DNA from: a virus | Strand: one strand, 5' to 3' | Length of the DNA: 10,034 nt | Virus genome (UHGV): UHGV-0306824 | Part shown: positions 1 through 10,034 of the stretch, piece after piece | Numbering within the stretch: position 1 is the first letter of the stretch | Layout: each line of letters begins with the position of its first letter | Position numbers and translations under genes: made by a program | The notes under the pieces: model-generated | Databases searched by the model: none | Told to the model about the DNA's origin: nothing | Seen by the model: the letters and a program-made list of their open reading frames with translations, nothing else

Positions 1-183
1 GCGCGTACAAGCCGCTATATCACTGACACGACAAAAGAGCGTTATCACCAGTGCCAGAACGTGAATTGCAGCGCCACGTTCATCACTTATGAGTCGGTAC
101 AGAGATACATCGTGAAGCCTGGAGAAGTCCACGCCGTGAGGCCGCACCCGTTGCCGTCAGGGCAGCAAATTATGTGGATGTAA
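1..183 (+). CDS. ogr: Ogr-type zinc-finger late-gene transcription activator, C-terminal 60 codons (5' end lies outside the window)
   Basis: Frame 1 reads ARTSRYITDTTKERYHQCQNVNCSATFITYESVQRYIVKPGEVHAVRPHPLPSGQQIMWM then TAA at 181-183. This matches my recollection of the C-terminal part of the 72-aa P2 Ogr, including the second Cys pair (CQNVNC). The overlapping 71-aa minus-strand ORF (87..302) has no comparable signature. Confidence 0.85.
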   Translation, partial: ARTSRYITDTTKERYHQCQNVNCSATFITYESVQRYIVKPGEVHAVRPHPLPSGQQIMWM

Positions 184-192
184 TTACAAACA

Positions 193-222
193 GGAAGCCC
201 CTCAGTCGAGGGGCTTTTTTGT
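193..222. terminator. Intrinsic terminator hairpin between convergent ogr (+) and D (-)
   Basis: AAGCCCCTC (195-203), loop AGTC, GAGGGGCTT (208-216), then a T-run 217-220. It lies 12 nt after the ogr stop and about 30 nt beyond the D stop (253-255). On the minus strand the hairpin is followed by the weaker tract CCTGTTTGT. Confidence 0.55.
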
Positions 223-252
223 CTTATAAAACAAACAGATAAAATAAAAACA

Positions 253-1416
253 TCACTCATCATCTTCTGTTTCGTACTCCACATCAGAAAGCCTGACCTC
301 AAGCTCTAAGGACGTCGTGAAGCCGCTATTATTCAGAAAATGTGTCACCTTAGTGATTGTCCAGTCCTGCTCGTCTATGACGCGCTTAAAGCCTGACACT
401 CTGACCGGTGTTTCCGTGTAAATATCAGCACGACCAGTGGCAAGGCTGATGGAGAACTCCGCAACGCCCCGTTGCAGTTTATCCCACTTCGCCTGAGCGG
501 CGCGCATGGCCTGCGCTTTCGTGGCATATACCGTGGTCAGGGCAAAAACGTTGTCAGCTTCACCGGCCATGTATTCACCTTCGCGCGCTTCCGGTACTTT
601 TGGCGCTTTCTTCTGCGTGACTGGTTTCGCTTTCGGGTGCTCCAGTGCGCGCAGGTGTTTCTCTTTCTTTTTGCGTTTCAGTTTTACCTTCTGCTTTTGC
701 GGCTTCGGGTCTTTGGTGTGTAACCACTTTGCCGTTACGCCGGTATAGGCTCCACGGTCAGCAATCGCAAAATGATGGCGGTCGCCGTCGCTGCGGGTTA
801 TGGTGACCTGCGGGATTTTTTTACCGCTGGCCGTCACCCCCTGCCCCGCTTTGAGAAACAACAGTTTTCCCATTTTTACCGACACCTCACCGCCGTTGCG
901 TTCTGCAAGACGGGTCAGGAATTTCGCATCAGACTCCTGCGACTGGTCGATGTGCGGGATTTTAATTCCGGCCAGTGACGGAGCGACACTGGCTTCCAGC
1001 CTGTTACGGGAGGCTATCGCCTCAACAATCGCACCGAGCGTGGTGTCATGCCAGGAGCCTTCACGGCGGGAATTGAGCGTCCCGCGGAAATCTGCACTCC
1101 GGGCGCGGATGGTGACCACATCCGGCGCGCCCCGGTGTTCAACCTCATCAACGGTGAATTTCCCTTTGCATACCAGGGCAAAACCTTTCCAGCCGATATA
1201 CACCGTCAGGACAGCGCCACGAACCGGCAACCCGACCTGCCCGTCGGCATCGTTCAGTTCAATATCAAGCTGGTCAGCCTCAAAGCCCCGGTTATCCGTC
1301 AGGGTCATGCTCATCAGACGGTCGCTGATATTGCCGGTAATATCCCTGCTGTCGAGCATCAGCATGTAATCCGGCGTCAGCGTACTACCTGCATCAAATG
1401 TCAGCGCGTCCAGCAT
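253..1416 (-). CDS. D: P2 gpD-family tail protein (late control gene D)
   Basis: 387-aa ORF, last gene of the FI-FII-E-T-U-D block and the same length I recall for P2 gpD. Its ATG (1414-1416) overlaps the U stop by one nucleotide (TAATG), indicating translational coupling. It contains a Lys-rich linker at about aa 235-275. Confidence 0.88.
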   Translation of the reverse strand: MLDALTFDAGSTLTPDYMLMLDSRDITGNISDRLMSMTLTDNRGFEADQLDIELNDADGQVGLPVRGAVLTVYIGWKGFALVCKGKFTVDEVEHRGAPDVVTIRARSADFRGTLNSRREGSWHDTTLGAIVEAIASRNRLEASVAPSLAGIKIPHIDQSQESDAKFLTRLAERNGGEVSVKMGKLLFLKAGQGVTASGKKIPQVTITRSDGDRHHFAIADRGAYTGVTAKWLHTKDPKPQKQKVKLKRKKKEKHLRALEHPKAKPVTQKKAPKVPEAREGEYMAGEADNVFALTTVYATKAQAMRAAQAKWDKLQRGVAEFSISLATGRADIYTETPVRVSGFKRVIDEQDWTITKVTHFLNNSGFTTSLELEVRLSDVEYETEDDE

Positions 1417-1895
1417 TATCCCGCCCCCGTCATACCCGTGAATCTGGTCGCCATACTGCCAGCCTTACCGATGAGCGATTCCGCCTGTTTACCGATATCG
1501 CCATAAAGCGCGGCCAGTGATTCATCCACGCGGGTGAGCGACAACGTAAAATCAATTTTCCGGGGTGTGCCGTCTGCAAAGAAAATACTCCCTGTTTCAC
1601 TCACCCTGCTGATGACATACATGCCGTAAATCATGCCGGTGCCATCCAGCAACGGCCACGCCCGGCCTTCCTCTGCCATCAGCCTGAGCGTGGTCATCGT
1701 CAGCTTCCCGCCGGTCAGTTCGGGATAAAGCACGCCGGCAAGCGTCATGTTTTCCTCACCCACACCGAGAAACTGAAAGGCATCCCGTTTACCGATACGG
1801 GGATTTGACGGCCAGCGATAATCTGATTCGCGCTGCATGGTCTGGTGTGGCAGCGTCTGGCGCATAAAAACAAACATACCTAACGCGAGCATCAT
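1416..1895 (-). CDS. U: P2 gpU-family tail protein
   Basis: 159-aa ORF between T and D in the canonical P2 order; the length matches gpU as I recall it. Its stop overlaps the D start. Confidence 0.88.
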   Translation of the reverse strand: MMLALGMFVFMRQTLPHQTMQRESDYRWPSNPRIGKRDAFQFLGVGEENMTLAGVLYPELTGGKLTMTTLRLMAEEGRAWPLLDGTGMIYGMYVISRVSETGSIFFADGTPRKIDFTLSLTRVDESLAALYGDIGKQAESLIGKAGSMATRFTGMTGAG

Positions 1896-1909
1896 TTTTC
1901 GTCACCTCC

Positions 1910-4357
1910 TTAACCGTCATGCATCATGCTGGCACGGGCGCGCGCACGTTTATCCCGCTCGTATTTTTCGAGCGCATCCTGTAACTGGCGGTCGAGCTGT
2001 GTCCCCGGCGCAGTACCACCCGTCAGGCTGATGTGATATTCGTTTTTACTCTGGTCTACATAAGAGCGGCCAGCCGGTGCCGTGACCGGCTGATAAGCCT
2101 GATAACCTGCATAAGAGCTGGTCGCCGGAATATAACCACCGGTGCCATACGTGGCGGCATGAGTCCTTGCGGCGGTCTGGTCAAGTGTGTCTGACTCTTT
2201 GTTGATAACACCGAGTTTTTCCAGTACCCAGTCAATACCGCTGCGCAGTTTGTTGAACGCATTAAGCGGCAGCCTCAGCGCGTCAGCCAGTGCCTGCCCG
2301 AACATGACCCCCGTGTCACGGCAACTGTTCAGGGTGTCCTGAGTGGCTTTGACCGGGACAATCAGGTTTTTAAACCACTGCCACGCGGCCTGTAACTTTT
2401 CACCCAGCCAGTCAAACACCGGTTTCAGTGGCGTGAACAGCTCCCCCACCGGCGCAAATGCCGCTTTCAGCCCTTCAACCACACCGCCAAAGAATGCGCT
2501 GACAGGCTCCCAGTATTTACGGATAAGCAACGCCCCGGCGACAATGGCGGCCACCACAGCCACAACCGGCCAGCTAATCGCCCCGATGGCCGTCATAACG
2601 GCACTACCAACCGTCGTGAAGATTGCCCCCATTGCGCCTGCTGCCGCGATGATGGCATTGATGCCAGTGATAACCGGCCAGGCTACAAGACCAATTGCAC
2701 CGATGATGCCAATAAGCGCCAGCGCGCCACCGGCAATGATGCCAATGGTTGACGCCAGTGATTTGTTTTTCTGGATCCAGCCGTCGAGTTTTAACACATA
2801 CTTTGTGGCCGTCTGTGTGAGCTTACGCAGTGCGCCTTCCTGCTGGTCAAACAGGTCTGTCCCCACCGCCTCATAAGCGGACTGAAACTCCTTAAAGTCA
2901 CCGCCGAGGTTGTCCTGCATGATATTTACCAGCTCGGCGGTCTTCCCGTCTGAGGCTTTAAACTCAGCGGTCAGTTTGTCCAGCTTTCCGGTTGAGGCGG
3001 CAGTCATCAGCACGGCGGCGGCTGAGCTGGCCTCCTCCCCGAAAATGGTTTTCATGTATTCAGCCTGCTGGGCAGTACCGAGCCGGTTTTTCTCAAAACT
3101 GGCCTGCATTTCTTTCAGAATGGTAAATACTGGTCGGGTATTCCCCTTACTGTCTGAGGTTTTCACGCCAAGCTCTTTGAGTGCATCCCATGCTTTTCCC
3201 GTCGGTGCCTGCAGGCGACTTAACACGGCACGGCTTCCCGTCCCCGCCATTGAGCCTGTGATTTTTGCATCATGCAGCGCCCCGACCATTGCGGCGGTTT
3301 CTTCAATGCTGACACCGGCATTTTTTGCCACTGGTGCGGCATAGGTCAGCGCATCGCTCATGCCGTCAAAATCAGCGGCGGTTTTGTTCATCGTCATGGA
3401 GAGAACATCCCCGATATGAGCGACCTTATCGTTTGAAAGCTGAAAGGCGGATTTCATCCCCATCAGCAGGGCGGCGTTTTCTTCCATCGTGCGGCGGTTC
3501 GCCAGTGCCATATTCAGCGTGACCGGCGTTGCCGCCTGAATGGCATCAACATCCCCACCGGCTTTCGCAATGATAATCTGTGCACCGGCTGCATCATCTG
3601 CCGAGGCGGCGGTGTTGTCGCCGAGCTGGCGCGCCTGCTTGCGGAGCGCGGTCATTTCGGCGGAGTCTTTTGCCACTCCGAGCACGGCCTGCAATTCTGA
3701 GTTTTTCTGCGCAAACTCATAACCGGGCATCAGCAACTTAACTCCGGCCATCGTTCCCGCCGCCGCAATCCCCACACCGGCAGCGCCCACTGAGGCCATA
3801 TTTCCGGCCAGTTCCTTGCCTGCCTGATAACGCTGTTTTACTGCGTTAAGTTTTGCCTGTTGCGCACTGACACGAGCCAGCGCGTCACGCTGACGGTTAA
3901 GCTGTGCGGTGGTTTCACTGATACGGTTTTTCAGTCCCTGCTCATCATGTGCAAGATTGCGGGTATTAATTCCCACAGCGGCCAGTTCCCGCTGCTGGCG
4001 TTTAATGGAATCTGTCAGGCGGTTATATTTCGCCTGTAAGTCCTCCGCCGCACGCTTTGCGGATTCCAGCACTTTCGCCTGAGCACGGGTCGGACGTTCG
4101 GTATTTTTAAACTGTGTGGCAAGGGCTTCGGCCTCCTGCCGTGCCTTTTCAAGTGCATGACCAGTCACGGCGAGCTGTGCACTGGTCTTGCGGAATCCCT
4201 CAATACGGGATGCGTGACCGTTCAGCTCGCGCAGTGATTTTTGTGTTTCCCGGATATCCCCCGACAGCGACCTGCTCGCTGTACGGATGGATTTAAACGG
4301 GCGGGATGCCTGGTCAACAGCCCTGAGCAATACCTGTAATTTTACATTGTTACTCAT
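1910..4357 (-). CDS. T: Tail tape measure protein (P2 gpT-like)
   Basis: 815-aa ORF. The N-terminal half is coiled-coil-like and rich in A/Q/R/K/E; a long Gly/Ala/Ile-rich hydrophobic segment sits mid-protein (IGIIAGGALALIGIIGAIGLVAWPVITG...), as is typical of tape measure proteins. It lies directly downstream of E/E', and its ATG (4355-4357) overlaps the E' stop. Confidence 0.9.
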   Translation of the reverse strand: MSNNVKLQVLLRAVDQASRPFKSIRTASRSLSGDIRETQKSLRELNGHASRIEGFRKTSAQLAVTGHALEKARQEAEALATQFKNTERPTRAQAKVLESAKRAAEDLQAKYNRLTDSIKRQQRELAAVGINTRNLAHDEQGLKNRISETTAQLNRQRDALARVSAQQAKLNAVKQRYQAGKELAGNMASVGAAGVGIAAAGTMAGVKLLMPGYEFAQKNSELQAVLGVAKDSAEMTALRKQARQLGDNTAASADDAAGAQIIIAKAGGDVDAIQAATPVTLNMALANRRTMEENAALLMGMKSAFQLSNDKVAHIGDVLSMTMNKTAADFDGMSDALTYAAPVAKNAGVSIEETAAMVGALHDAKITGSMAGTGSRAVLSRLQAPTGKAWDALKELGVKTSDSKGNTRPVFTILKEMQASFEKNRLGTAQQAEYMKTIFGEEASSAAAVLMTAASTGKLDKLTAEFKASDGKTAELVNIMQDNLGGDFKEFQSAYEAVGTDLFDQQEGALRKLTQTATKYVLKLDGWIQKNKSLASTIGIIAGGALALIGIIGAIGLVAWPVITGINAIIAAAGAMGAIFTTVGSAVMTAIGAISWPVVAVVAAIVAGALLIRKYWEPVSAFFGGVVEGLKAAFAPVGELFTPLKPVFDWLGEKLQAAWQWFKNLIVPVKATQDTLNSCRDTGVMFGQALADALRLPLNAFNKLRSGIDWVLEKLGVINKESDTLDQTAARTHAATYGTGGYIPATSSYAGYQAYQPVTAPAGRSYVDQSKNEYHISLTGGTAPGTQLDRQLQDALEKYERDKRARARASMMHDG

Positions 4358-4777
4358 TCGTGTTTCCGCTTCGCCGGAGTGCCTTTTCGCGCCATGTGAT
4401 GAGTTCGGTCAGGCTCATGGGATACAGTTCTGATGGCGGCCAGTGAAATATCACTGCCACATCCGCCATCAGGTCATCGACCGAGAGATTTTTCGGAAAC
4501 GTTACTGCACCGAGTTCGGCGACAAAAAACCGACCACCTTACCGGCCAGCGCCACAAGGTCAGGCAGTTCCAGCGCGGCGACCTCCTGCTCGGTCAGCAT
4601 CGGTGCCGTCATGCGCGGCAGTACCTTAATCAGTGCATCGACTTCGGAGTTTGCAACCGCAGCCAGACTGACACCGCGCAGCGTCCCCGCACTGGGTTTC
4701 ATCAGCGTGACCTGTTCGATAACCTGCTCACCACGCTTGACCGGATTGTCCAGGGTAATCACATTTTCTTTGTTCAT
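4350..4777 (-). CDS. Tail assembly chaperone E+E' made by -1 programmed ribosomal frameshift (predicted 142 aa)
   Basis: After the minus-strand heptamer T TTT TTG, the -1 frame stays open for 57 codons (VAELGAVTFPKNLSVDDLMADVAVIFHWPPSELYPMSLTELITWREKALRRSGNTNE) and ends at TAA 4350-4352, which overlaps the T start codon. The arrangement parallels lambda G/GT and P2 E/E+E'. Confidence 0.7.
4502..4777 (-). CDS. E: Tail assembly chaperone E (P2 gpE-like), zero-frame product
   Basis: 91-aa ORF between FII and T, ending ...KVVGFLSPNSVQ*. It contains the slippery heptamer seven codons before its stop. Confidence 0.85.
   Translation of the reverse strand: MNKENVITLDNPVKRGEQVIEQVTLMKPSAGTLRGVSLAAVANSEVDALIKVLPRMTAPMLTEQEVAALELPDLVALAGKVVGFLSPNSVQ
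4523..4529 (-). other. -1 frameshift slippery heptamer T TTT TTG (plus strand reads caaaaaa)
   Basis: Read directly: the zero-frame codons are GGT TTT TTG (G-F-L of ...VVGFL). This is a classical X XXY YYZ site, placed where tail-chaperone frameshifts occur. Confidence 0.7.
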
Positions 4778-4805
4778 GGTTTTCTCACTTCTGAATCAGG
4801 GTTAA

Positions 4806-4826
4806 CCGGTCAGCCAGGCTGACCGG
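4806..4826 (-). other. Intercistronic stem-loop between FII stop and E start
   Basis: Perfect 10-bp inverted repeat CCGGTCAGCC a GGCTGACCGG, 8 nt past the FII stop (4834-4836) and about 50 nt before the E ATG. No U-tract follows on the minus strand, so it is not a canonical intrinsic terminator. Confidence 0.4.
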
Positions 4827-4833
4827 ATGAAAA

Positions 4834-5352
4834 TTACAGGCCGATATTTCGGCGGTGTTGCTCCAGCCGGTCGACGCCGTTCACCTTCTCAATCATGTTG
4901 ATGGTGTCGATTTCGACCAGCTCCTTACCGTCCATCGTCAGCCGGAAATAGGTGCAGACCACGGAGATTTTCGACTCGGTGTCTTCTCCCTGTTTACCCT
5001 CGCCGGTGTCGATTTCTTTCTGACGTCCACGCATGACCACTTCGACGGCCACCGTTTCGCCGGTATCGTCGCGCTGGTAAGAGCCTGCAAAACGAATCGG
5101 CACGGCATCCACACCGGTTGAGGCGTAAAGCTCCCAGATAACCGAATCCGGGAAGCCCCCGAGCGACCACTCCATTGACAGCGCATCGTCATCAAGGCCG
5201 AGGTCTACCGGTGCGCTGCCGTTCATCCCCGCACCGCGATAGTTTTCGAGCTTACGGGTCAGTTTTGGCAGCGTGACGGACTTTGCAACGCCCTGATAGC
5301 TGTAGCCGTTCAGAAAGACGTTCATTAACTTGAGTTTGCGCGGCATTGCCAT
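4834..5352 (-). CDS. FII: Major tail tube protein (P2 gpFII-like)
   Basis: 172-aa ORF immediately downstream of the sheath gene; the 12-nt spacer contains GGAG. Length matches P2 FII as I recall it. Confidence 0.9.
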   Translation of the reverse strand: MAMPRKLKLMNVFLNGYSYQGVAKSVTLPKLTRKLENYRGAGMNGSAPVDLGLDDDALSMEWSLGGFPDSVIWELYASTGVDAVPIRFAGSYQRDDTGETVAVEVVMRGRQKEIDTGEGKQGEDTESKISVVCTYFRLTMDGKELVEIDTINMIEKVNGVDRLEQHRRNIGL

Positions 5353-5364
5353 CGGTCAGGCTCC

Positions 5365-6555
5365 TTAATTGCTGTTAACCGAGGTGACCAGATTTGCCAG
5401 GTATTTATCGGTAATACGCTGGCGCAGGGTCAGGTTTTCGAGAGGAGGCACCGGGGTATAGTCGTAGTCGATATACAGTTTTCCGGCCTTGAGGGTTTCC
5501 GCATCGTTGGATTCTTCGCTGAACCAGCAGGTCGCATCCACGATATAGCCGTTTGTTTTCAGCTCACGGAATTTGGCATTGATGCCGTCAACGATGTCGC
5601 GAATCAGCGTTGCGGTGATGGGCTTGTCCACCGCCCACATGTGCGCCTCAGCCATCGTGTCGGCCAGCACCTGCGCGGTGCGGGTGTAGTTTTCAAAGAG
5701 GAACAGCGGGTCATCAGAGCAGGTACGGTTACCCCAGAAGCGGAAACCGTCGCGGCGAATCAGCGTAGTGACGCCTGACTCATTAAGCAGGTCAGCATCG
5801 GTGCCGGACTCCTGCAAATCCCAGAATACAGAGGCGCTGATGCCGGTAACACCGTTCACCCCGACATTGGACAGCGTTTTATGCCAGCCCTGCTCCTGGT
5901 CGATTTTGGCACGCAGCCCCAGTGCACGGGCGGTGGCATACGCGGTGGCGGTGGTACTGGTGACCGTATCCCATGCGAGGAAATCCGGCCAGATGACCAT
6001 CAGCTCACGCTGGCTGAAATTCTGGCGGTAAGCTTTCACCTCGGAAATGGTTTTACAGCCCCATGCGCTGATATACCCGAAAGCGCGCAGCTTCTGACAG
6101 ACTGATGCCAGTGCAACAGCCACCTCTTTGGTGTCCAGTCCCGGCACGCCGAGAATACGCGGTTTAACACCGGTTACCGACTCCGCCGCCAGCAGGGCTT
6201 TCAGTCCGGTGTACTGACCGTTTTCGTCGGTGGTGCCGATGATATTGGAAACGGTCTGCGCGAGTTTCGTTTCTTCGTCGTCGCCGGTGCCGTCTTCCAC
6301 GCGCACAACAACGGTGACCGGTTTTGACTGGTCAGCGATGGCCTGTAACGACGCCGCCAGCGTGCCTTTTTTACCGGCCTTTGCAATTGCGCTCTGCACA
6401 TTAGTAATCAGCACAGGTTTATTGAGGGGGAAGGTTTCCGCATCCGCATCGCTGGCCGTGCAGACCATGCCGACAATGGCAGTGGATACGGTGGAAATGA
6501 CGCGGGTGCCGTCGTTAATCTCCAGCACCTGCACGCCGTGATGATAGTCACTCAT
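5365..6555 (-). CDS. FI: Contractile tail sheath protein (P2 gpFI-like)
   Basis: 396-aa ORF, first gene of the block, with GGAG about 8 nt upstream of its ATG. Length matches P2 FI as I recall it. Confidence 0.9.
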   Translation of the reverse strand: MSDYHHGVQVLEINDGTRVISTVSTAIVGMVCTASDADAETFPLNKPVLITNVQSAIAKAGKKGTLAASLQAIADQSKPVTVVVRVEDGTGDDEETKLAQTVSNIIGTTDENGQYTGLKALLAAESVTGVKPRILGVPGLDTKEVAVALASVCQKLRAFGYISAWGCKTISEVKAYRQNFSQRELMVIWPDFLAWDTVTSTTATAYATARALGLRAKIDQEQGWHKTLSNVGVNGVTGISASVFWDLQESGTDADLLNESGVTTLIRRDGFRFWGNRTCSDDPLFLFENYTRTAQVLADTMAEAHMWAVDKPITATLIRDIVDGINAKFRELKTNGYIVDATCWFSEESNDAETLKAGKLYIDYDYTPVPPLENLTLRQRITDKYLANLVTSVNSN

Positions 6556-6663
6556 CCGTTTAACTCCGTGGTTAATGGGTGAGTGGTATTTTCAGTTGTG
6601 CCGGAGATGTCAGGCTATTTGTCCCGGTTGGCTAATCGACAGCACAACCACCGGTAAAGAAAA
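6556..6663 (-). promoter_or_regulatory. Putative late promoter and RBS region for the FI operon (expected to be Ogr-dependent)
   Basis: Only the position is supported: about 100 nt between the upstream terminator hairpin and the FI start. I searched for a perfect TGT-N12-ACA activator-site dyad and found none. Confidence 0.3.
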
Positions 6664-6682
6664 GGCGGGCAATTTGCCCGCC
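6650..6682 (-). terminator. Intrinsic terminator (minus-strand orientation) upstream of the FI promoter region
   Basis: GGCGGGCAA t TTGCCCGCC palindrome at 6664-6682. On the minus strand it is followed by TTTTCTTTA (reverse complement of 6650-6663). On the + strand there is no good T-tract. Confidence 0.5.
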
Positions 6683-6881
6683 TGTCCTGATTTGTACTCA
6701 CTCATTTTCCGACTGACAATTTACATAGCCCAAACGCTATCAAATCTGACAGTCTGCTTTGGGTAAACTGATAATGGGCAGAGCTTTGTATGGCTAACTT
6801 CAGCATGATACCTTACAGTCAAGCTGACAAAAGGCGGAATGATTATTCGTTGATACACATCCTCCTGTAAGGAAACAAAGC

Positions 6882-7652
6882 ATGTATAAAGAACTTATAG
6901 AACAGAGACTGAATGAGGCAAAAGCCGCCAGAGCTGCGCTGAGCAAGATTAATGGTGTAATTGTCGAAAAAACACACAACCCTGACCGCGGACTGTATCT
7001 CGTTAATTATGCCAATTTACTTATGAACAGGCAGATAGACATCTTCGATGATGCGCTTCTCCTCCTCGAAAACGAACGATACCAAAGCGCTTGTATTGTT
7101 AGCCGAGGAATGATTGAAACTCATGCCTTCTCACGACTCTTAAACAAGAAAGTAGAGAAAATTTTGACTACCCAAAATGGACACGCAAGTGTAGATAACG
7201 CTATCGAAGTTATATTGAACTTTACGAATAGTTCTCGATTTAAAAAGTCAGAGCAAGAAAAGATTCAGAAAGAAGTATTTGACCCGAACGACTACATGTT
7301 TACTGAGGAGGCTAAATATCGTTTTGAAAACCTACTTGCTGTCAGTATGCATGTGATGACTGCTTTACGCGAACTCTATAAAGATGAGATGAAGCAGACT
7401 AATCAGATGGAAAGTGATTTTGAACTGACTTATGACATACTTAGCGAATATGTTCATCCTTCACAAACGAGCATCTACCACTACTACACACCTGAAACCC
7501 ACTTAGTTCCTACTTCGGTTGGTAATATTCATACTTATGTGCATGCTCAGCTACAATGTGTGAGAGCGCTACTTTTCATATTAGAAGCAAAGAGTCAACA
7601 TTATTGGTCTACACAGTTAGCAAATGAGATGACCAAACGAGCTAAAGAGTAA
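6882..7652 (+). CDS. Hypothetical protein, 256 aa; cargo gene at the G-FI moron position (P2 Z/fun-type site)
   Basis: Uninterrupted ORF with AAGGA 8 nt before its ATG. It is visibly more AT-rich than the flanking tail genes, opposite in orientation to the late operon, and predicted mostly helical. No motif I can assign, apart from an R-x5-H stretch (SRGMIETH). Confidence 0.75.
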   Translation: MYKELIEQRLNEAKAARAALSKINGVIVEKTHNPDRGLYLVNYANLLMNRQIDIFDDALLLLENERYQSACIVSRGMIETHAFSRLLNKKVEKILTTQNGHASVDNAIEVILNFTNSSRFKKSEQEKIQKEVFDPNDYMFTEEAKYRFENLLAVSMHVMTALRELYKDEMKQTNQMESDFELTYDILSEYVHPSQTSIYHYYTPETHLVPTSVGNIHTYVHAQLQCVRALLFILEAKSQHYWSTQLANEMTKRAKE

Positions 7653-7767
7653 GGCCTAAGCCCTGCAATGTGTTTATTTGAAAAATATTTCAATTTTTTC
7701 TTTGTATGCTGTAAATGACCTGAGTCCCTCTGACCAGAGAGCCTTGATGTTATCAATGTCCGCTCCT

Positions 7768-7900
7768 GGCACAGAGCGGACTGTCAGATTAGGGGTTACT
7801 CTGTGTTATAGATATGTGAGCTCACACCAGAGCTTATACAGCTTATTGTGGCATTTCCGGCCATTCAGGATTTGCAGGATCCACACGACTGACCAGAACG
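7768..7900. repeat. R1 copy a: 133 bp comprising the last 19 codons of a minus-strand tfa plus 75 bp of its 3' flank
   Basis: About 92% identical by eye (roughly 10 mismatches) to 8456-8588 in the same orientation. Confidence 0.8.
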
Positions 7901-7997
7901 CTGTAGCGTTCCCATGATTCCAGTCGGCTACGCTCCTCATCTGTTGCCATGTTCAGTCTGACCGCGCGCTCCAGCGGCAAAATCACGGATTCGGCAT
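7843..7997 (-). pseudogene. Tail fibre assembly protein (P2 gpG / Tfa family), 3' remnant only
   Basis: Minus strand reads [50 protein letters not shown], a Tfa-family C-terminus. The frame runs only 57 codons back to an in-frame TGA (rc of 8017-8019) with no start. Homology to the + strand tfa copy stops abruptly at about 7997. Confidence 0.7.
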
Positions 7998-7998
7998 T

Positions 7999-8106
7999 AT
8001 TGTTCAGGATACCGGCTCAAACTCTGCCGATAGCATTGGTGGCATATATTACAGACCGGTGCAGAAATACATTAACGGGACATGGTATAACGTAGCGCAG
8101 GTATAA
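7999..8106 (+). pseudogene. Possible 3' fragment of a tail-fibre (H/Stf-like) gene, directly upstream of the + strand tfa
   Basis: Frame reads ...[36 protein letters not shown] with its stop 3 nt before the tfa ATG (TAA ttt ATG). That is the usual fibre-chaperone spacing, but the assignment rests on context only. Confidence 0.35.
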
Positions 8107-8250
8107 TTTATGCAGCATTTAAAAAATATTACGGCGGGTAATCCAAAAACGGTTGAACAATATCAATTGACAAAGAATTTTGATGTTGTCTGGTTTTTTT
8201 CAGAAGATGGTAAGAACTGGTACGAAGAACAAAAGTATTTTGCTGATGAC

Positions 8251-8367
8251 ACGATAAAAATAGCGTACGACAAAGATAATATCATCCACTATGTGGAAAA
8301 GGATGTGACAGCTATCAGACCGGATGGATTAAGTGTTGTTGAAGTGGCGGATATTACTGCTAACCGA
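8251..8367 (+). repeat. tfa-internal 117-bp direct repeat, copy 1
   Basis: 115 of 117 identical to 8586-8702; the mismatches are A/G at two positions (gacaaAgat vs gacaaGgat; catccActat vs catccGctat). Confidence 0.85.
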
Positions 8368-8455
8368 GCTGGAGCTGGTTGTGTTTAATGAAAAATTACA
8401 ATTTTAATACGTCCGCTGTACACCCTTAGCTGCCGTTAGCTTAACGTCCGCAACA
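8368..8455 (+). repeat. R2 copy 1: 88-bp element at the breakpoint inside tfa
   Basis: GCTGGAGCTGGTTGTGTTTAATGAAAAATTACAATTTTAATACGTCCGCTGTACACCCTTAGCTGCCGTTAGCTTAACGTCCGCAACA, identical to 9130-9217. Confidence 0.85.
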
Positions 8456-8588
8456 GGCACAGAGCGGACTGTCAGATTAGGCTTTACTCTGTACCATAGA
8501 TATGTAAGCTCACACCAGAGTTCATACAACTTATTGCGGCATTTCCGGCCATTCAGGATTTGCAGGATCCACACGACTGACCAGAACG
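8456..8588. repeat. R1 copy b: inverted tfa 3' end (last 18 codons, ..[18 protein letters not shown]) plus 3' flank, lying inside the + strand tfa
   Basis: About 92% identical to 7768-7900. It encodes on the minus strand exactly the C-terminal residues that the + strand tfa lacks. Confidence 0.8.
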
Positions 8589-8702
8589 ATAAAAATAGCG
8601 TACGACAAGGATAATATCATCCGCTATGTGGAAAAGGATGTGACAGCTATCAGACCGGATGGATTAAGTGTTGTTGAAGTGGCGGATATTACTGCTAACC
8701 GA
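8586..8702 (+). repeat. tfa-internal 117-bp direct repeat, copy 2
   Basis: See copy 1; it shares ACG (8586-8588) with the end of R1b. Confidence 0.85.
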
Positions 8703-9129
8703 CGGGCGGACATTTCAGGGGGCTGGATGTTTAAGGACGGAAAAGTGATTAAACGCATTTATACGGCAGAGGAATTGCAGCAGCAGGCAGAAAACCGGAA
8801 AGCCAGACTTCTTGCAGATGCTGAATCCGTGATTTTGCCGCTGGAGCGCGCGGTCAGACTGAACATGGCAACAGAGGAGGAGCGCACACGGCTGGAGGCT
8901 TGGGAACGCTACAGCGTTCTGGTCAGTCGTGTGAATTAATAGTCTTTATTAATCATAATATTTAAATAATTAGGCTGCTTTTTTAATTGAACTATAAAGA
9001 ATAAGCAACCCACTCAATAAGATACACTTTATTTATTCTGGTGCAATATTAAAAACGCATAATAAGTGTCATTTTCATTGCTCGTGAATGCCATTACTCT
9101 TAAATCGTGATCCGGTTCAAAATTTAGAG

Positions 9130-9217
9130 GCTGGAGCTGGTTGTGTTTAATGAAAAATTACAATTTTAATACGTCCGCTGTACACCCTTAGCTGCCGTTA
9201 GCTTAACGTCCGCAACA
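9130..9217 (+). repeat. R2 copy 2: 88-bp element abutting the 5' end of the DarT-like frame
   Basis: Identical to 8368-8455. Its last 11 nt supply the in-frame codons R-P-Q just before the DarT-like sequence; an in-frame TAA sits at 9204-9206. Confidence 0.85.
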
Positions 9218-9218
9218 T

Positions 9219-9545
9219 GTTTATCATTTTACATACATTGATAATCTTGAGGGAATTATAAAAAATGGATTACTTAGTACAAATTTAAAATCAAATAGAG
9301 GCATTATTCATAAAGATATAGCAAATAATGAAATACAACACCGTCGTAGTGAAATGAGGGTCACTTGTGGTCCAGGTGGAGTGGTCCATGATTATGTGCC
9401 TTTTTACTTCACTAAAAGATCTCCCATGTTACTTAATGTTATTAAGAAAAAAAACGTAGATCAAGAAGGAATTATATATCTTGCGATACCAATAGAGGCG
9501 ATAGAAGATAAATCAGTAGTTTTTTCAAATTCTTACCACATTTAA
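9219..9545 (+). pseudogene. DarT-like DNA ADP-ribosyltransferase toxin (DUF4433-like), N-terminal part; no start codon and truncated at a rearrangement junction
   Basis: Frame reads VYHFTYIDNLEGIIKNGLLSTNLKSNRGIIHKDIANNEIQHRRSEMRVTCGPGGVVHDYVPFYFTKRSPMLLNVIKKKNVDQEGIIYLAIPIEAIEDKSVVFSNS then SYHI*. The motifs YHxT..NL, GGxxHDYVPFYF and SPML match what I recall of the DarT family. There is no ATG/GTG/TTG between the upstream TAA (9204) and the conserved N-terminus; the first ATG is at 9354. Confidence 0.55.
9418..9534 (+). repeat. R3 copy a: 117-bp perfect direct repeat inside the DarT-like frame
   Basis: Identical by eye to 9685-9801 (GATCTCCCATGTTACTTAATG...TTTTTTCAAATTCTT). Confidence 0.85.
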
Positions 9546-9605
9546 ATCATGAAAGTAATGATGATCAAATGATCTAGAATCACAACGAACATCAAAATTA
9601 TTAAA

Positions 9606-9685
9606 CCCATATTTTTTCAATAGCTGTGCAACATGCGTTTTCACGCAAAGATTCCAAACAACAATAAATGAAAAATTATTGAAGG
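9606..9685. repeat. Inverted copy (reverse complement) of 9955-10034, the DarT-like 3' coding segment
   Basis: Perfect 80-bp inverted repeat; I checked 9611-9660 base by base against 9980-10029. The pairing reaches the window edge, so the repeat may extend to 9535 on this side. Confidence 0.85.
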
Positions 9686-9801
9686 ATCTCCCATGTTACT
9701 TAATGTTATTAAGAAAAAAAACGTAGATCAAGAAGGAATTATATATCTTGCGATACCAATAGAGGCGATAGAAGATAAATCAGTAGTTTTTTCAAATTCT
9801 T
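9685..9801 (+). repeat. R3 copy b
   Basis: See R3 copy a. Confidence 0.85.
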
Positions 9802-10034
9802 CTGCAAATACTTTAACGCCACCAACATTTTACTCTAATGCTGATGATTTAAATAAGCTAAATTGGGATGCAATTGACAGTAGAGTGTGGATCCCAAAGA
9901 CCGAAGGAGTAAAACAGCAAAAAATGGCAGAGTTGCTTATTCATGATGAAATTCCCTTCAATAATTTTTCATTTATTGTTGTTTGGAATCTTTGCGTGAA
10001 AACGCATGTTGCACAGCTATTGAAAAAATATGGG
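9693..10034 (+). CDS. DarT-like toxin, C-terminal portion; frame open to the window end (3' partial, lacks the N-terminal region)
   Basis: From ATG 9693: MLLNVIKKKNVDQEGIIYLAIPIEAIEDKSVVFSNSSANTLTPPTFYSNADDLNKLNWDAIDSRVWIPKTEGVKQQKMAELLIHDEIPFNNFSFIVVWNLCVKTHVAQLLKKYG, 114 codons with no stop. The ..KMAELLIHD.. helix fits the Glu-containing catalytic motif of ADP-ribosyltransferases. It is absent from the ORF track only because it runs off the edge. Confidence 0.5.
   Translation, partial: MLLNVIKKKNVDQEGIIYLAIPIEAIEDKSVVFSNSSANTLTPPTFYSNADDLNKLNWDAIDSRVWIPKTEGVKQQKMAELLIHDEIPFNNFSFIVVWNLCVKTHVAQLLKKYG
9955..10034. repeat. Right arm of the inverted repeat (coding orientation of the DarT-like gene)
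   Basis: Reverse complement of 9606-9685. Confidence 0.85.

What the first reader, a model, noticed from the sequence alone, without database searches (positions are those of the whole stretch)
9130..10034. DarT-like DNA ADP-ribosyltransferase toxin frame in an AT-rich island next to the prophage tail-fibre genes
The frame carries YHFTYIDNL, GPGGVVHDYVPFYF, RSPMLLN and a C-terminal ..QQKMAELLIHDEIPF.. helix. To my recollection these are the signature blocks of DarT (DUF4433), the toxin of the DarTG toxin-antitoxin system, which ADP-ribosylates thymidine in ssDNA and has been shown to give anti-phage defence. The gene sits in visibly AT-rich DNA, unlike the flanking phage genes, so it looks like horizontally acquired cargo. 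The DarG macrodomain antitoxin would normally follow darT and would lie beyond 10034. Such a frame riding on a prophage tail-fibre locus is worth following up, all the more because it appears broken.
Basis: partly seen in the sequence, partly recalled or inferred. Interest (0 to 1): 0.75.

Follow-up and report, generated by a model that had tools for sequence, protein, structure and literature searches.

The report
Broken DarT toxin gene in scrambled DNA
The frame is a real DarT DNA ADP-ribosyltransferase toxin gene of a kind already annotated in P2-like prophages of E. coli, but here it is a dead fragment inside a 2-kb stretch whose pieces are joined in alternating orientation, which is more likely a sequencing or assembly artefact than new biology.

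Summary
Joining 9219-9534 to 9802-10034 gives a 183-aa protein that hits Pfam DarT (PF14487) at E=1.9e-46, and the DNA is AT-rich (GC 0.29-0.33, against about 0.55 in the tail genes). The pieces are 100% identical to a 444-aa DarT annotated in several E. coli genomes. There it sits between the tail-fibre assembly gene and tail sheath gene FI of a P2-like prophage. A macrodomain DarG-like gene follows it, so the system is DarTG2-type. The full protein also carries a C-terminal HD domain, which would lie beyond the window.

The window copy is dead. It lacks the start codon, the first 10 codons and the 51 nt upstream. Its upstream region is inverted. A 147-nt inverted piece of its own downstream sequence, flanked by a 120-nt duplication, puts a stop after codon 115.

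This break is one of eight strand-switch junctions (223, 7997, 8367, 8588, 8936, 9217, 9534, 9685). None of the 5426 complete E. coli genomes spans the junctions. One tested junction 30-mer is absent from three large collections. The pieces tile the native sequence and show excess microhomology.

The family is known. The scramble is probably an artefact, but a real template-switch rearrangement is not excluded.

The parts
9218..9534 (+). darT fragment 1: last base of codon 10, codons 11-115 and the first base of codon 116 of a 444-aa DarT. It holds YHFTYIDNL, HDYVPFYF and RSPML. It runs into a junction-made stop (SNSYHI*, stop at 9543-9545).
   Evidence: 100% identical to E. coli LR-28 L001 10515-10831 and 30EVA1 L003 12578->12262; translation; Pfam DarT.
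9534..9685 (-). Insert that breaks the frame: an antisense copy of darT codons about 167-217.
   Evidence: 100% identical to L001 11136->10985 in reverse; inverted repeat I2 (9606-9685 / 9955-10034), 100% complementary.
9685..10034 (+). darT fragment 2: codons about 77-193, cut by the window end. Positions 9685-9801 duplicate codons 77-115. The fragment holds the MAELLIH glutamate.
   Evidence: 100% identical to L003 12378->12029; direct repeat D2; alignment to Thermus DarT.
8932..9217 (-). Native tfa-darT intergenic region, which would hold the darT promoter, present in reverse orientation. The next 80 nt of the native sequence (51 nt of 5' leader plus codons 1-10) are missing.
   Evidence: 100% identical to L001 10434->10149 in reverse. 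L001 10435-10514 is absent from the window, and the darT ATG is at L001 10486.
8586..8936 (+). Tail-fibre assembly gene (tfa) of the DarTG-type prophage, codons about 48-163, ending in a junction-made stop (ORF 8628-8939).
   Evidence: 99.7-100% identical to L001 9687-10034 and to L004/L006; Pfam Caudo_TAP 2.7e-26.
8368..8588 (-). Antisense copy of the tfa 3' end (last about 19 codons) plus 163 nt of the native downstream spacer. Its first 88 nt recur exactly at 9130-9217.
   Evidence: 100% identical to L001 10236->10016 in reverse; direct repeat D4.
7989..8367 (+). End of tail-fibre gene H plus tfa codons 1-86, from a different allele (ORF 8110-8388 ends in junction-made residues).
   Evidence: 98.1% identical to E47 L002 13989->13614, 96.6% to the DarTG-type prophages, and at best 98.9% anywhere in the collection.
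7755..7997 (-). C-terminal 51 codons of tfa plus its downstream spacer, in the natural context next to the DUF5677 gene. The natural collinear prophage sequence ends at 7997.
   Evidence: Window 6500-7997 is 99.9% identical to E. coli E47, where tfa continues intact.
6882..7652 (+). DUF5677 gene, which is this prophage's own cargo at the variable locus between FI and tfa.
   Evidence: Pfam DUF5677 1.3e-10; same position in E47; no PADLOC or NCBIfam hit.
253..6555 (-). Intact P2-like tail genes D, U, T (tape measure), E, FII (tube) and FI (sheath).
   Evidence: ORFs; collinear with E47 and 30EVA1 at about 98%; annotations.
1..223 (+). Piece of ogrK and its flank in the wrong orientation relative to gene D. 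The 88 nt that naturally lie between them are missing. The junction is at 223.
   Evidence: 100% identical to L003 3257->3035 in reverse, while 223-6761 matches L003 3345-9878 forward. No genome out of 5426 spans this junction.

Best explanation
The region 9218-10034 holds two overlapping fragments of a darT gene. The gene belongs to the DarTG2 class, meaning a DarT toxin paired with a macrodomain DarG antitoxin, and to a long subfamily whose 444-aa toxin carries a C-terminal HD domain. Its natural home is the variable cargo locus of P2-like prophages between the tail-fibre assembly gene and tail sheath gene FI.

In intact relatives the inferred mechanism is that of characterised DarTG2 systems. 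DarT uses NAD+ to ADP-ribosylate thymidine in single-stranded DNA and so blocks replication. DarG's macrodomain removes the adduct and holds the toxin in check until phage infection.

The copy written in this window cannot work. It has no start codon, no ribosome-binding site and no correctly oriented upstream region. It also stops after codon 115, before the catalytic glutamate.

The damage is part of a patchwork. From 7997 to the window end, pieces of 150-380 nt of otherwise native sequence follow each other on alternating strands. A further junction lies at 223. I judge this patchwork more likely to have arisen outside the cell, through polymerase template switching during amplification or mis-oriented, unmerged fragments in assembly, than to be an inherited genome structure.

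Shown: the family identity, the dead state of the gene, the junction map, and the absence of these junctions elsewhere. Inferred: the enzymatic mechanism, and the artefactual origin of the patchwork.
For: Identity: Pfam DarT at 1.9e-46 on the joined window protein. On the intact relative, NCBIfam toxin_DarT is above its cut-off and PADLOC DarT scores 7.8e-53. Thermus DarT 7OMV matches at 3.4e-25, with the query E159 aligned to the position that is Ala in the crystallised chain. H13 is nearly invariant, and R52, R53, H67, D68 and E159 are invariant, across 20 homologues.

Context: the order tfa-darT-macro-FI is found in LR-28, 30EVA1 and four further genomes. The partner matches DarG macrodomains. 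The class definition comes from PMC11543638. The P2 'fun' hotspot is described in PMC9519451.

Dead state: the junction map against intact loci and the translations.

Patchwork:
- There are eight junctions and all are strand switches. The jumps are 270-495 nt.
- The pieces from 8368 on are 99.7-100% identical to the native sequence.
- No junction is spanned by any of 5426 complete E. coli genomes or by phage or plasmid records.
- The 30-mer across junction 9534 is absent from the GTDB representative genomes, IMG/VR and the JGI metagenomes.
- The junction-made ORFs are not on record among 153 billion gene positions.
- The pieces tile the native 1450 nt, leaving only 80 nt uncovered against 454 expected for random placement (P about 0.001).
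- The patchwork joins two different tfa alleles. This is easier to explain by mis-layout of reads from two related prophages than by one in-cell event.
Against: I could not find the source record or its reads, so the artefact reading is an inference. Junction microhomology (1, 6, 0, 3, 5, 0, 1, 1; sum 17 against 5.7 expected, P about 0.001) argues for a physical template-switch or annealing process. It fits a real in-cell replication accident as well as an in-vitro one. The sequence inside the pieces is error-free, and 7.8 kb between the junctions is a perfectly ordinary prophage. Natural inactivation of this toxin does occur: darT is split into 89-aa and 349-aa ORFs in L004 and into two annotated pieces in strain S1-SRB-02-B.
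Confidence: 0.6

Rival explanations
1. The patchwork is a real, inherited structure. A single replication-based complex rearrangement, with serial microhomology-mediated template switches between the two strands at a stalled or broken fork, scrambled the tfa-darT segment of a prophage and killed the toxin. This would resemble MMBIR/FoSTeS events or remodelled tandem inverted duplications.
For: All eight junctions switch strand. The jumps are short and uniform (270-495 nt) and stay within the locus. Microhomology is enriched (P about 0.001). The pieces walk progressively along the template. A toxin gene is a plausible survivor only when inactivated, and other genomes carry point-inactivated copies.
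Against: No other genome or contig shares any junction. The event would have to use templates from two different tfa alleles, one E47-like and one 30EVA1-like. It would also need a separate junction 7.8 kb away at 223. Seven switches within 2 kb is far denser than the bacterial template-switch events I know of (from memory).
Confidence: 0.28
2. The segment is a programmed multi-inversion system driven by a site-specific recombinase, of the shufflon or Gin/Cin/Min type. Such systems occur at tail-fibre loci, and the darT break would be one of its states.
For: Some P2-like prophages do carry a serine invertase with inverted tfa genes at this same locus (L005, L008, L009). The window has tfa fragments on both strands.
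Against: Inversion cannot create the duplications seen here (117, 88, 120, 80 and 22 nt) or the deletions (80 and 88 nt). The junctions share no common site sequence, and the overlaps vary from 0 to 6 nt. No recombinase gene is in the window. The junctions fall inside darT and ogrK, which are not tail-fibre modules.
Confidence: 0.02
3. The gene is functional as written, for example expressed from the internal ATG at 9354 or restored by recoding.
For: An ORF of 63 aa starts at 9354.
Against: That ORF lacks the N-terminal YHFT block and ends before E159. The downstream fragment is in another frame full of stops. There is no start, no leader and no correctly oriented upstream region.
Confidence: 0.01

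Closest known systems
DarTG2 toxin-antitoxin / anti-phage system (DarT2 plus macrodomain DarG; Thermus, M. tuberculosis, E. coli)
   Same: The DarT domain has conserved NAD-binding and catalytic positions. In intact relatives a macrodomain gene follows, overlapping by 4 nt, and it matches DarG macrodomains. NCBI already annotates the intact protein (WP_049143771.1) as DarT.
   Different: The intact toxin is 444 aa and has a conserved C-terminal HD domain, whereas the solved DarTs are 210-242 aa. The partner matches DarG models only over its N-terminal half and scores below the NCBIfam DarG cut-off, 228.6 against 250. The window copy is a non-coding wreck.
Cargo at the P2-like prophage variable locus between tail-fibre genes and FI (the 'fun' (Z) locus)
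   Same: In LR-28, 30EVA1 and four other genomes, darT-darG occupy exactly this slot. Other prophages hold a DUF5677 gene, an invertase module or other genes there. The hotspot is described in PMC9519451.
   Different: In the window the slot next to FI is filled by DUF5677. The darT pieces lie beyond the tfa fragments, inverted relative to FI.
Template-switch chimeras: inverted chimeras of multiple displacement amplification, and in-cell MMBIR or tandem inverted duplications (compared from memory, not tested against data)
   Same: The joins are strand-inverting, the donor segments are local, and the junctions show short microhomology.
   Different: The density is much higher, at seven switches in 2 kb. 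The pieces tile the native sequence almost completely. Two alleles are involved.

Membership tests
DarT (PF14487 / NF048013) ssDNA ADP-ribosyltransferase | Sequence match to the curated family model above its cut-off | tested here: met
   The joined window protein scores 158.8 bits against a Pfam cut-off of 22.5. The intact relative scores 158.2 bits against an NCBIfam equivalog cut-off of 150. PADLOC DarT scores 7.8e-53.
DarT (PF14487 / NF048013) ssDNA ADP-ribosyltransferase | Conserved NAD-binding and catalytic positions (His of YHFT, the HDYVPFYF / RSPML blocks, the catalytic Glu of MAELL) | tested here: met
   All are present in the window fragments. They align to Thermus DarT 7OMV. E159, H67, D68, R52 and R53 are invariant and H13 is nearly invariant in 20 homologues. 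That the Glu is the catalytic residue rests on my memory of the Thermus DarT work.
DarT (PF14487 / NF048013) ssDNA ADP-ribosyltransferase | An intact, expressible open reading frame | tested here: not met
   The start codon, codons 1-10 and 51 nt of leader are missing and the upstream region is inverted. A stop follows codon 115, and the second fragment is out of frame.
DarT (PF14487 / NF048013) ssDNA ADP-ribosyltransferase | NAD+-dependent ADP-ribosylation of thymidine in ssDNA | not testable with these tools
   This is a biochemical property. It is inferred from homology only.
DarTG2 two-gene system | An adjacent macrodomain antitoxin gene (DarG) downstream of darT | not testable with these tools
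   It would lie beyond base 10034. The feature is met in every intact relative examined, with the macro domain at Pfam 1.8e-15 and PADLOC DarG at 6.4e-58. Because of the patchwork, what follows in the source cannot be predicted.
DarTG2 two-gene system | The partner is a full DarG (macrodomain plus the C-terminal DarT-binding domain) | tested here: inconclusive
   In the relative, only residues 1-164 (PADLOC) or 2-208 (NCBIfam) match, and the NCBIfam score of 228.6 is below the cut-off of 250.
Cargo of the P2-like variable locus between tfa and FI | Located between the tail-fibre assembly gene and FI, on the prophage late-gene strand | tested here: not met
   The feature is met in intact relatives. 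In the window, DUF5677 fills the slot, and darT lies beyond the tfa fragments on the opposite strand to FI.
Site-specific multi-inversion system (shufflon / Gin-Cin-Min) | Conservative inversion at a shared crossover site, with no gain or loss of sequence, and a recombinase nearby | tested here: not met
   Duplications and deletions occur at the junctions. There is no shared site, and the overlaps vary from 0 to 6 nt. No recombinase ORF is in the window.

The most novel reading that the evidence does not exclude
The alternating-strand patchwork is a genuine inherited product of one replication accident in a living E. coli. Seven or more serial microhomology-mediated template switches within 2 kb of a prophage cargo locus would have destroyed a DNA-damaging toxin gene. 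That would be a bacterial counterpart of the complex template-switch rearrangements known from human genomes, caught with all donor sequences still 100% identical to the native locus. Independently of this, the intact relatives define a widespread DarT-HD fusion toxin. I found no published study of it in a limited library search.
Probability: 0.25. Interest if true: 0.6.

Novelty: already known. Interest (0 to 1): 0.22.

Why it matters
The DarT call adds nothing new, because NCBI already annotates the intact gene as DarT in several E. coli genomes and the P2 cargo locus is a described defence hotspot. Two things are worth keeping.

First, the window is a warning. A 'broken toxin' that looks like an evolutionary story is one of eight strand-switch junctions that no other record shares. 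Any conclusion about pseudogenisation, selection against the toxin, or loss of DarG from this sequence would be unsafe until reads are checked.

Second, the intact relatives show that this lineage of DarT is a 445-aa fusion to an HD phosphohydrolase domain whose metal-binding residues are conserved. It is present in more than 100 protein clusters across Vibrio, Serratia, Pseudomonas, Enterobacter and Klebsiella. I found no paper that describes it, and the role of the HD domain in a DNA ADP-ribosylating toxin is an open and testable question.

Tried and rejected
**Search for the source record.**
- I ran BLAST of three window segments spanning the junctions against 5426 complete E. coli genomes, and of the right-hand part (7600/7900-10034) against phages and plasmids.
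- I ran exact searches for the 30-mer across junction 9534 in the GTDB representative genomes, IMG/VR and the JGI metagenomes.
- I ran exact look-ups of the two junction-made ORFs. Nothing was found.
- The exact tape-measure protein exists on only one 4751-bp Logan contig, with no sample on record.
- Window-specific 32-mers away from the junctions found 18 contigs. None is the source; the best is 97.8% identical. I therefore could not test whether the source exists in an unscrambled form.

**Explanations rejected.**
- IS or transposon insertion as the cause of the break: the insert is the gene's own downstream sequence, inverted.
- Frameshift or recoding: rejected.
- Diversity-generating retroelement, prompted by the 146-nt repeat at 90% (7755-7900 / 8443-8588): the two copies are simply two tfa alleles, and there is no reverse transcriptase.
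- Invertase or shufflon: rejected because of the duplications, the deletions and the lack of a common site.
- Purely random in-silico scrambling: disfavoured by the microhomology excess and the tiling.
- AT-richness as the trigger: the AT-rich DUF5677 segment (6600-7800) has no junction.

**Literature.** A search for DarT together with 'HD domain' found nothing relevant. The LeRoux 2022 DarTG paper is not held in the library.

Full report
**1. The observation**

Translating 9219-9545 gives VYHFTYIDNLEGIIKNGLL...GPGGVVHDYVPFYFTKRSPMLLNVIKKKNVDQEGIIYLAIPIEAIEDKSVVFSNSYHI*. The frame resumes at 9802 with SANTLTPP...QQKMAELLIHDEIPF...KKYG. The joined 183-aa protein hits Pfam DarT (PF14487) at E=1.9e-46, 158.8 bits against a cut-off of 22.5. 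GC is 0.29-0.33 here and 0.53-0.60 in the tail genes.

The break consists of a 120-nt direct repeat (9415-9534 / 9682-9801) around a 147-nt insert. That insert is the reverse complement of sequence lying further downstream in the same gene.

**2. What the gene is**

The window pieces are 100% identical to a gene annotated as darT in E. coli LR-28, 30EVA1 and S1-SRB-02-B. The same gene is in four further genomes found through the shared gpD protein.

The intact protein (WP_049143771.1) is 444 aa. Its DarT domain spans residues 12-203 and an HD domain spans residues 288-391. It passes the NCBIfam toxin_DarT equivalog cut-off, and PADLOC DarT scores 7.8e-53. The closest solved structures are Thermus DarT 7OMV (3.4e-25) and M. 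tuberculosis DarT 7YK3.

The next gene overlaps darT by 4 nt and encodes a 371-aa macrodomain protein. It matches PADLOC DarG (6.4e-58, N-terminal half only) and the DarG macrodomains 5M3I/5M31 at about 1e-31. A macrodomain partner defines the DarTG2 class, which modifies thymidine; DarTG1 uses a NADAR partner and modifies guanine (PMC11543638).

**3. Where it normally sits**

In 30EVA1 an otherwise complete P2-like prophage at yegQ/yegR reads ogrK-D-U-T-E-FII-FI-darG-darT-tfa-H, all on one strand. This is the variable locus between the tail-fibre genes and FI that holds fun in P2 itself. It has been noted as a second defence hotspot of P2-like phages (PMC9519451). Other prophages carry a DUF5677 gene, an invertase with inverted tfa genes, or other cargo there.

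**4. The state of the window copy**

Against the intact loci the window is a patchwork. In 30EVA1 (L003) coordinates:

| Window | L003 | Direction | Identity |
|---|---|---|---|
| 1-223 | 3257->3035 | reverse | 100% (ogrK) |
| 223-6761 | 3345-9878 | forward | 98.4% |
| 7989-8367 | 13669->13290 | reverse | 96.6% |
| 8368-8588 | 12857-13077 | forward | 100% |
| 8586-8936 | 13406->13056 | reverse | 99.7% |
| 8932-9217 | 12659-12944 | forward | 100% |
| 9218-9534 | 12578->12262 | reverse | 100% |
| 9534-9685 | 11957-12108 | forward | 100% |
| 9685-10034 | 12378->12029 | reverse | 100% |

Window 223-7997 is collinear with E. coli E47, and 6500-7997 is 99.9% identical to it, including the DUF5677 gene.

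For darT this has three consequences:
- The native upstream region is present but inverted.
- The 80 nt holding the leader and codons 1-10 are lost.
- Codons 77-115 are duplicated around an antisense copy of codons 167-217, which creates a stop after codon 115.

The longest remaining ORF is 63 aa. It lacks both the N-terminal histidine block and the glutamate E159. The tail-fibre assembly gene is wrecked in the same manner.

**5. The nature of the patchwork**

- All eight junctions switch strand. The jumps are 270-495 nt and the pieces are 150-380 nt.
- Junction overlaps are 1, 6, 0, 3, 5, 0, 1 and 1 nt. The sum of 17 compares with 5.7 expected for random inverted joins in this DNA (P about 0.001).
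- The six pieces from the DarTG-type sequence tile 1450 nt of native sequence and leave only 80 nt uncovered, against 454 nt expected for random placement (P about 0.001).
- The pieces come from two alleles. Piece 7989-8367 is 98.1% identical to E47 and at best 98.9% to anything in the collection. The pieces from 8368 on are 99.7-100% identical to the DarTG-type prophage.
- The left 7.8 kb is itself a natural-looking mosaic. It is identical to 30EVA1 over 223-1400 and 2000-3700, and nearly identical to E47 from about 6000 to 7997.

**6. Is it found anywhere else?**

It is not. No complete E. coli genome (5426), phage record or plasmid record spans any junction. The 30-mer across junction 9534 is absent from the GTDB representatives, IMG/VR and the JGI metagenomes. 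The junction-made ORFs are not on record. Every natural locus examined is collinear. The exact tape-measure protein is on record on only one short Logan contig. That contig ends near points where prophage variants diverge, which hints that the sample holds two related P2-like prophages. This last point is my inference.

**7. Interpretation**

The DarT identity and the dead state of this copy are shown directly. The origin of the patchwork is inferred.

- A random in-silico scramble is unlikely, given the microhomology and the tiling.
- A site-specific inversion system is excluded by the duplications, the deletions and the lack of a common site.
- Two readings remain:
  - (a) strand-switching outside the cell, through amplification chimeras or mis-oriented, unmerged fragments laid out by an assembler confronted with two related prophages;
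  - (b) a genuine replication-based complex rearrangement in the cell.

I favour (a), at about 0.6 against 0.28, for four reasons: no other record shares any junction; two alleles are mixed; there is a further junction 7.8 kb away at the other end of the window; and the pieces form a near-complete tiling. The reads would settle it.

**8. Comparison with what is known, and novelty**

The gene belongs to a known family in a known kind of place, and NCBI already annotates the intact version, so I rate it 'already known'. The system works like DarTG2.

Membership of the DarT family is met on sequence and on conserved residues. It fails on 'intact ORF'. It cannot be tested for the adjacent antitoxin or for enzymatic activity.

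One lead goes beyond the window. The long DarT-HD architecture is widespread: 819 homologues, with more than 100 clusters of about 445 aa carrying PF14487 plus PF01966. The HD residues H290, H322-D323, H343, D378/D382 and D413 are invariant in a 20-sequence alignment. I found no paper on this architecture, though the library searched is limited.

Noticed in passing
L001 10486-11820 (intact relative of the window gene; the part beyond window base 10034): The full-length DarT of this lineage is a 444-aa fusion of DarT (residues 12-203) with a C-terminal HD phosphohydrolase domain (288-391). More than 100 protein clusters of about 445 aa share the architecture in Vibrio, Serratia, Pseudomonas, Enterobacter, Klebsiella and others. 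The HD metal-binding residues are invariant in 20 homologues. I found no paper describing it.
   Followed up: partly
L001 11817-12932: The macrodomain partner (371 aa) matches DarG models only over its N-terminal half and falls below the NCBIfam DarG cut-off (228.6 against 250). Its C-terminal half may therefore be a different toxin-binding module, suited to the DarT-HD toxin.
   Followed up: no
window 6882-7652 (+): A 256-aa DUF5677 protein is encoded in AT-rich DNA (GC 0.37-0.43), on the strand opposite to the tail genes, in the P2 cargo slot between FI and tfa. The same arrangement occurs in E. coli E47 and three other genomes. It has no PADLOC or NCBIfam hit, so it is a candidate uncharacterised defence or cargo gene.
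   Followed up: partly
window 1-223: A piece of ogrK and its flank is present in the wrong orientation relative to gene D, and the 88 nt that naturally lie between them are missing. This is the same kind of strand-switch junction as in the darT region, but 7.8 kb away at the other end of the window.
   Followed up: yes
window 7755-8939: The tail-fibre assembly gene appears as three fragments from two alleles: 7843-7986 on the minus strand, and 8110-8388 and 8628-8939 on the plus strand. There are 117-nt and 88-nt exact or near-exact duplications.
   Followed up: yes
L004 1931-3264 (GCA_050175565.1) and E. coli S1-SRB-02-B (H3): In otherwise collinear prophages, darT is split into two ORFs (89 aa plus 349 aa in L004; two annotated DarT pieces in S1-SRB-02-B). 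Simple natural inactivation of this toxin does therefore occur.
   Followed up: no
L005, L008, L009 (about 2700-4800 in each): Other P2-like prophages with the identical gpD carry a serine invertase (Resolvase plus HTH_7) with convergent tfa genes and an inverted fibre tip in the same slot next to FI. This is an invertible tail-fibre module of the Mu/P1 kind.
   Followed up: no
window 223-7997: The collinear prophage part is a mosaic. It is identical to 30EVA1 over about 223-1400 and 2000-3700, nearly identical to E47 from about 6000, and different from both in between. Its exact tape-measure protein is on record on only one 4751-bp Logan contig.
   Followed up: partly
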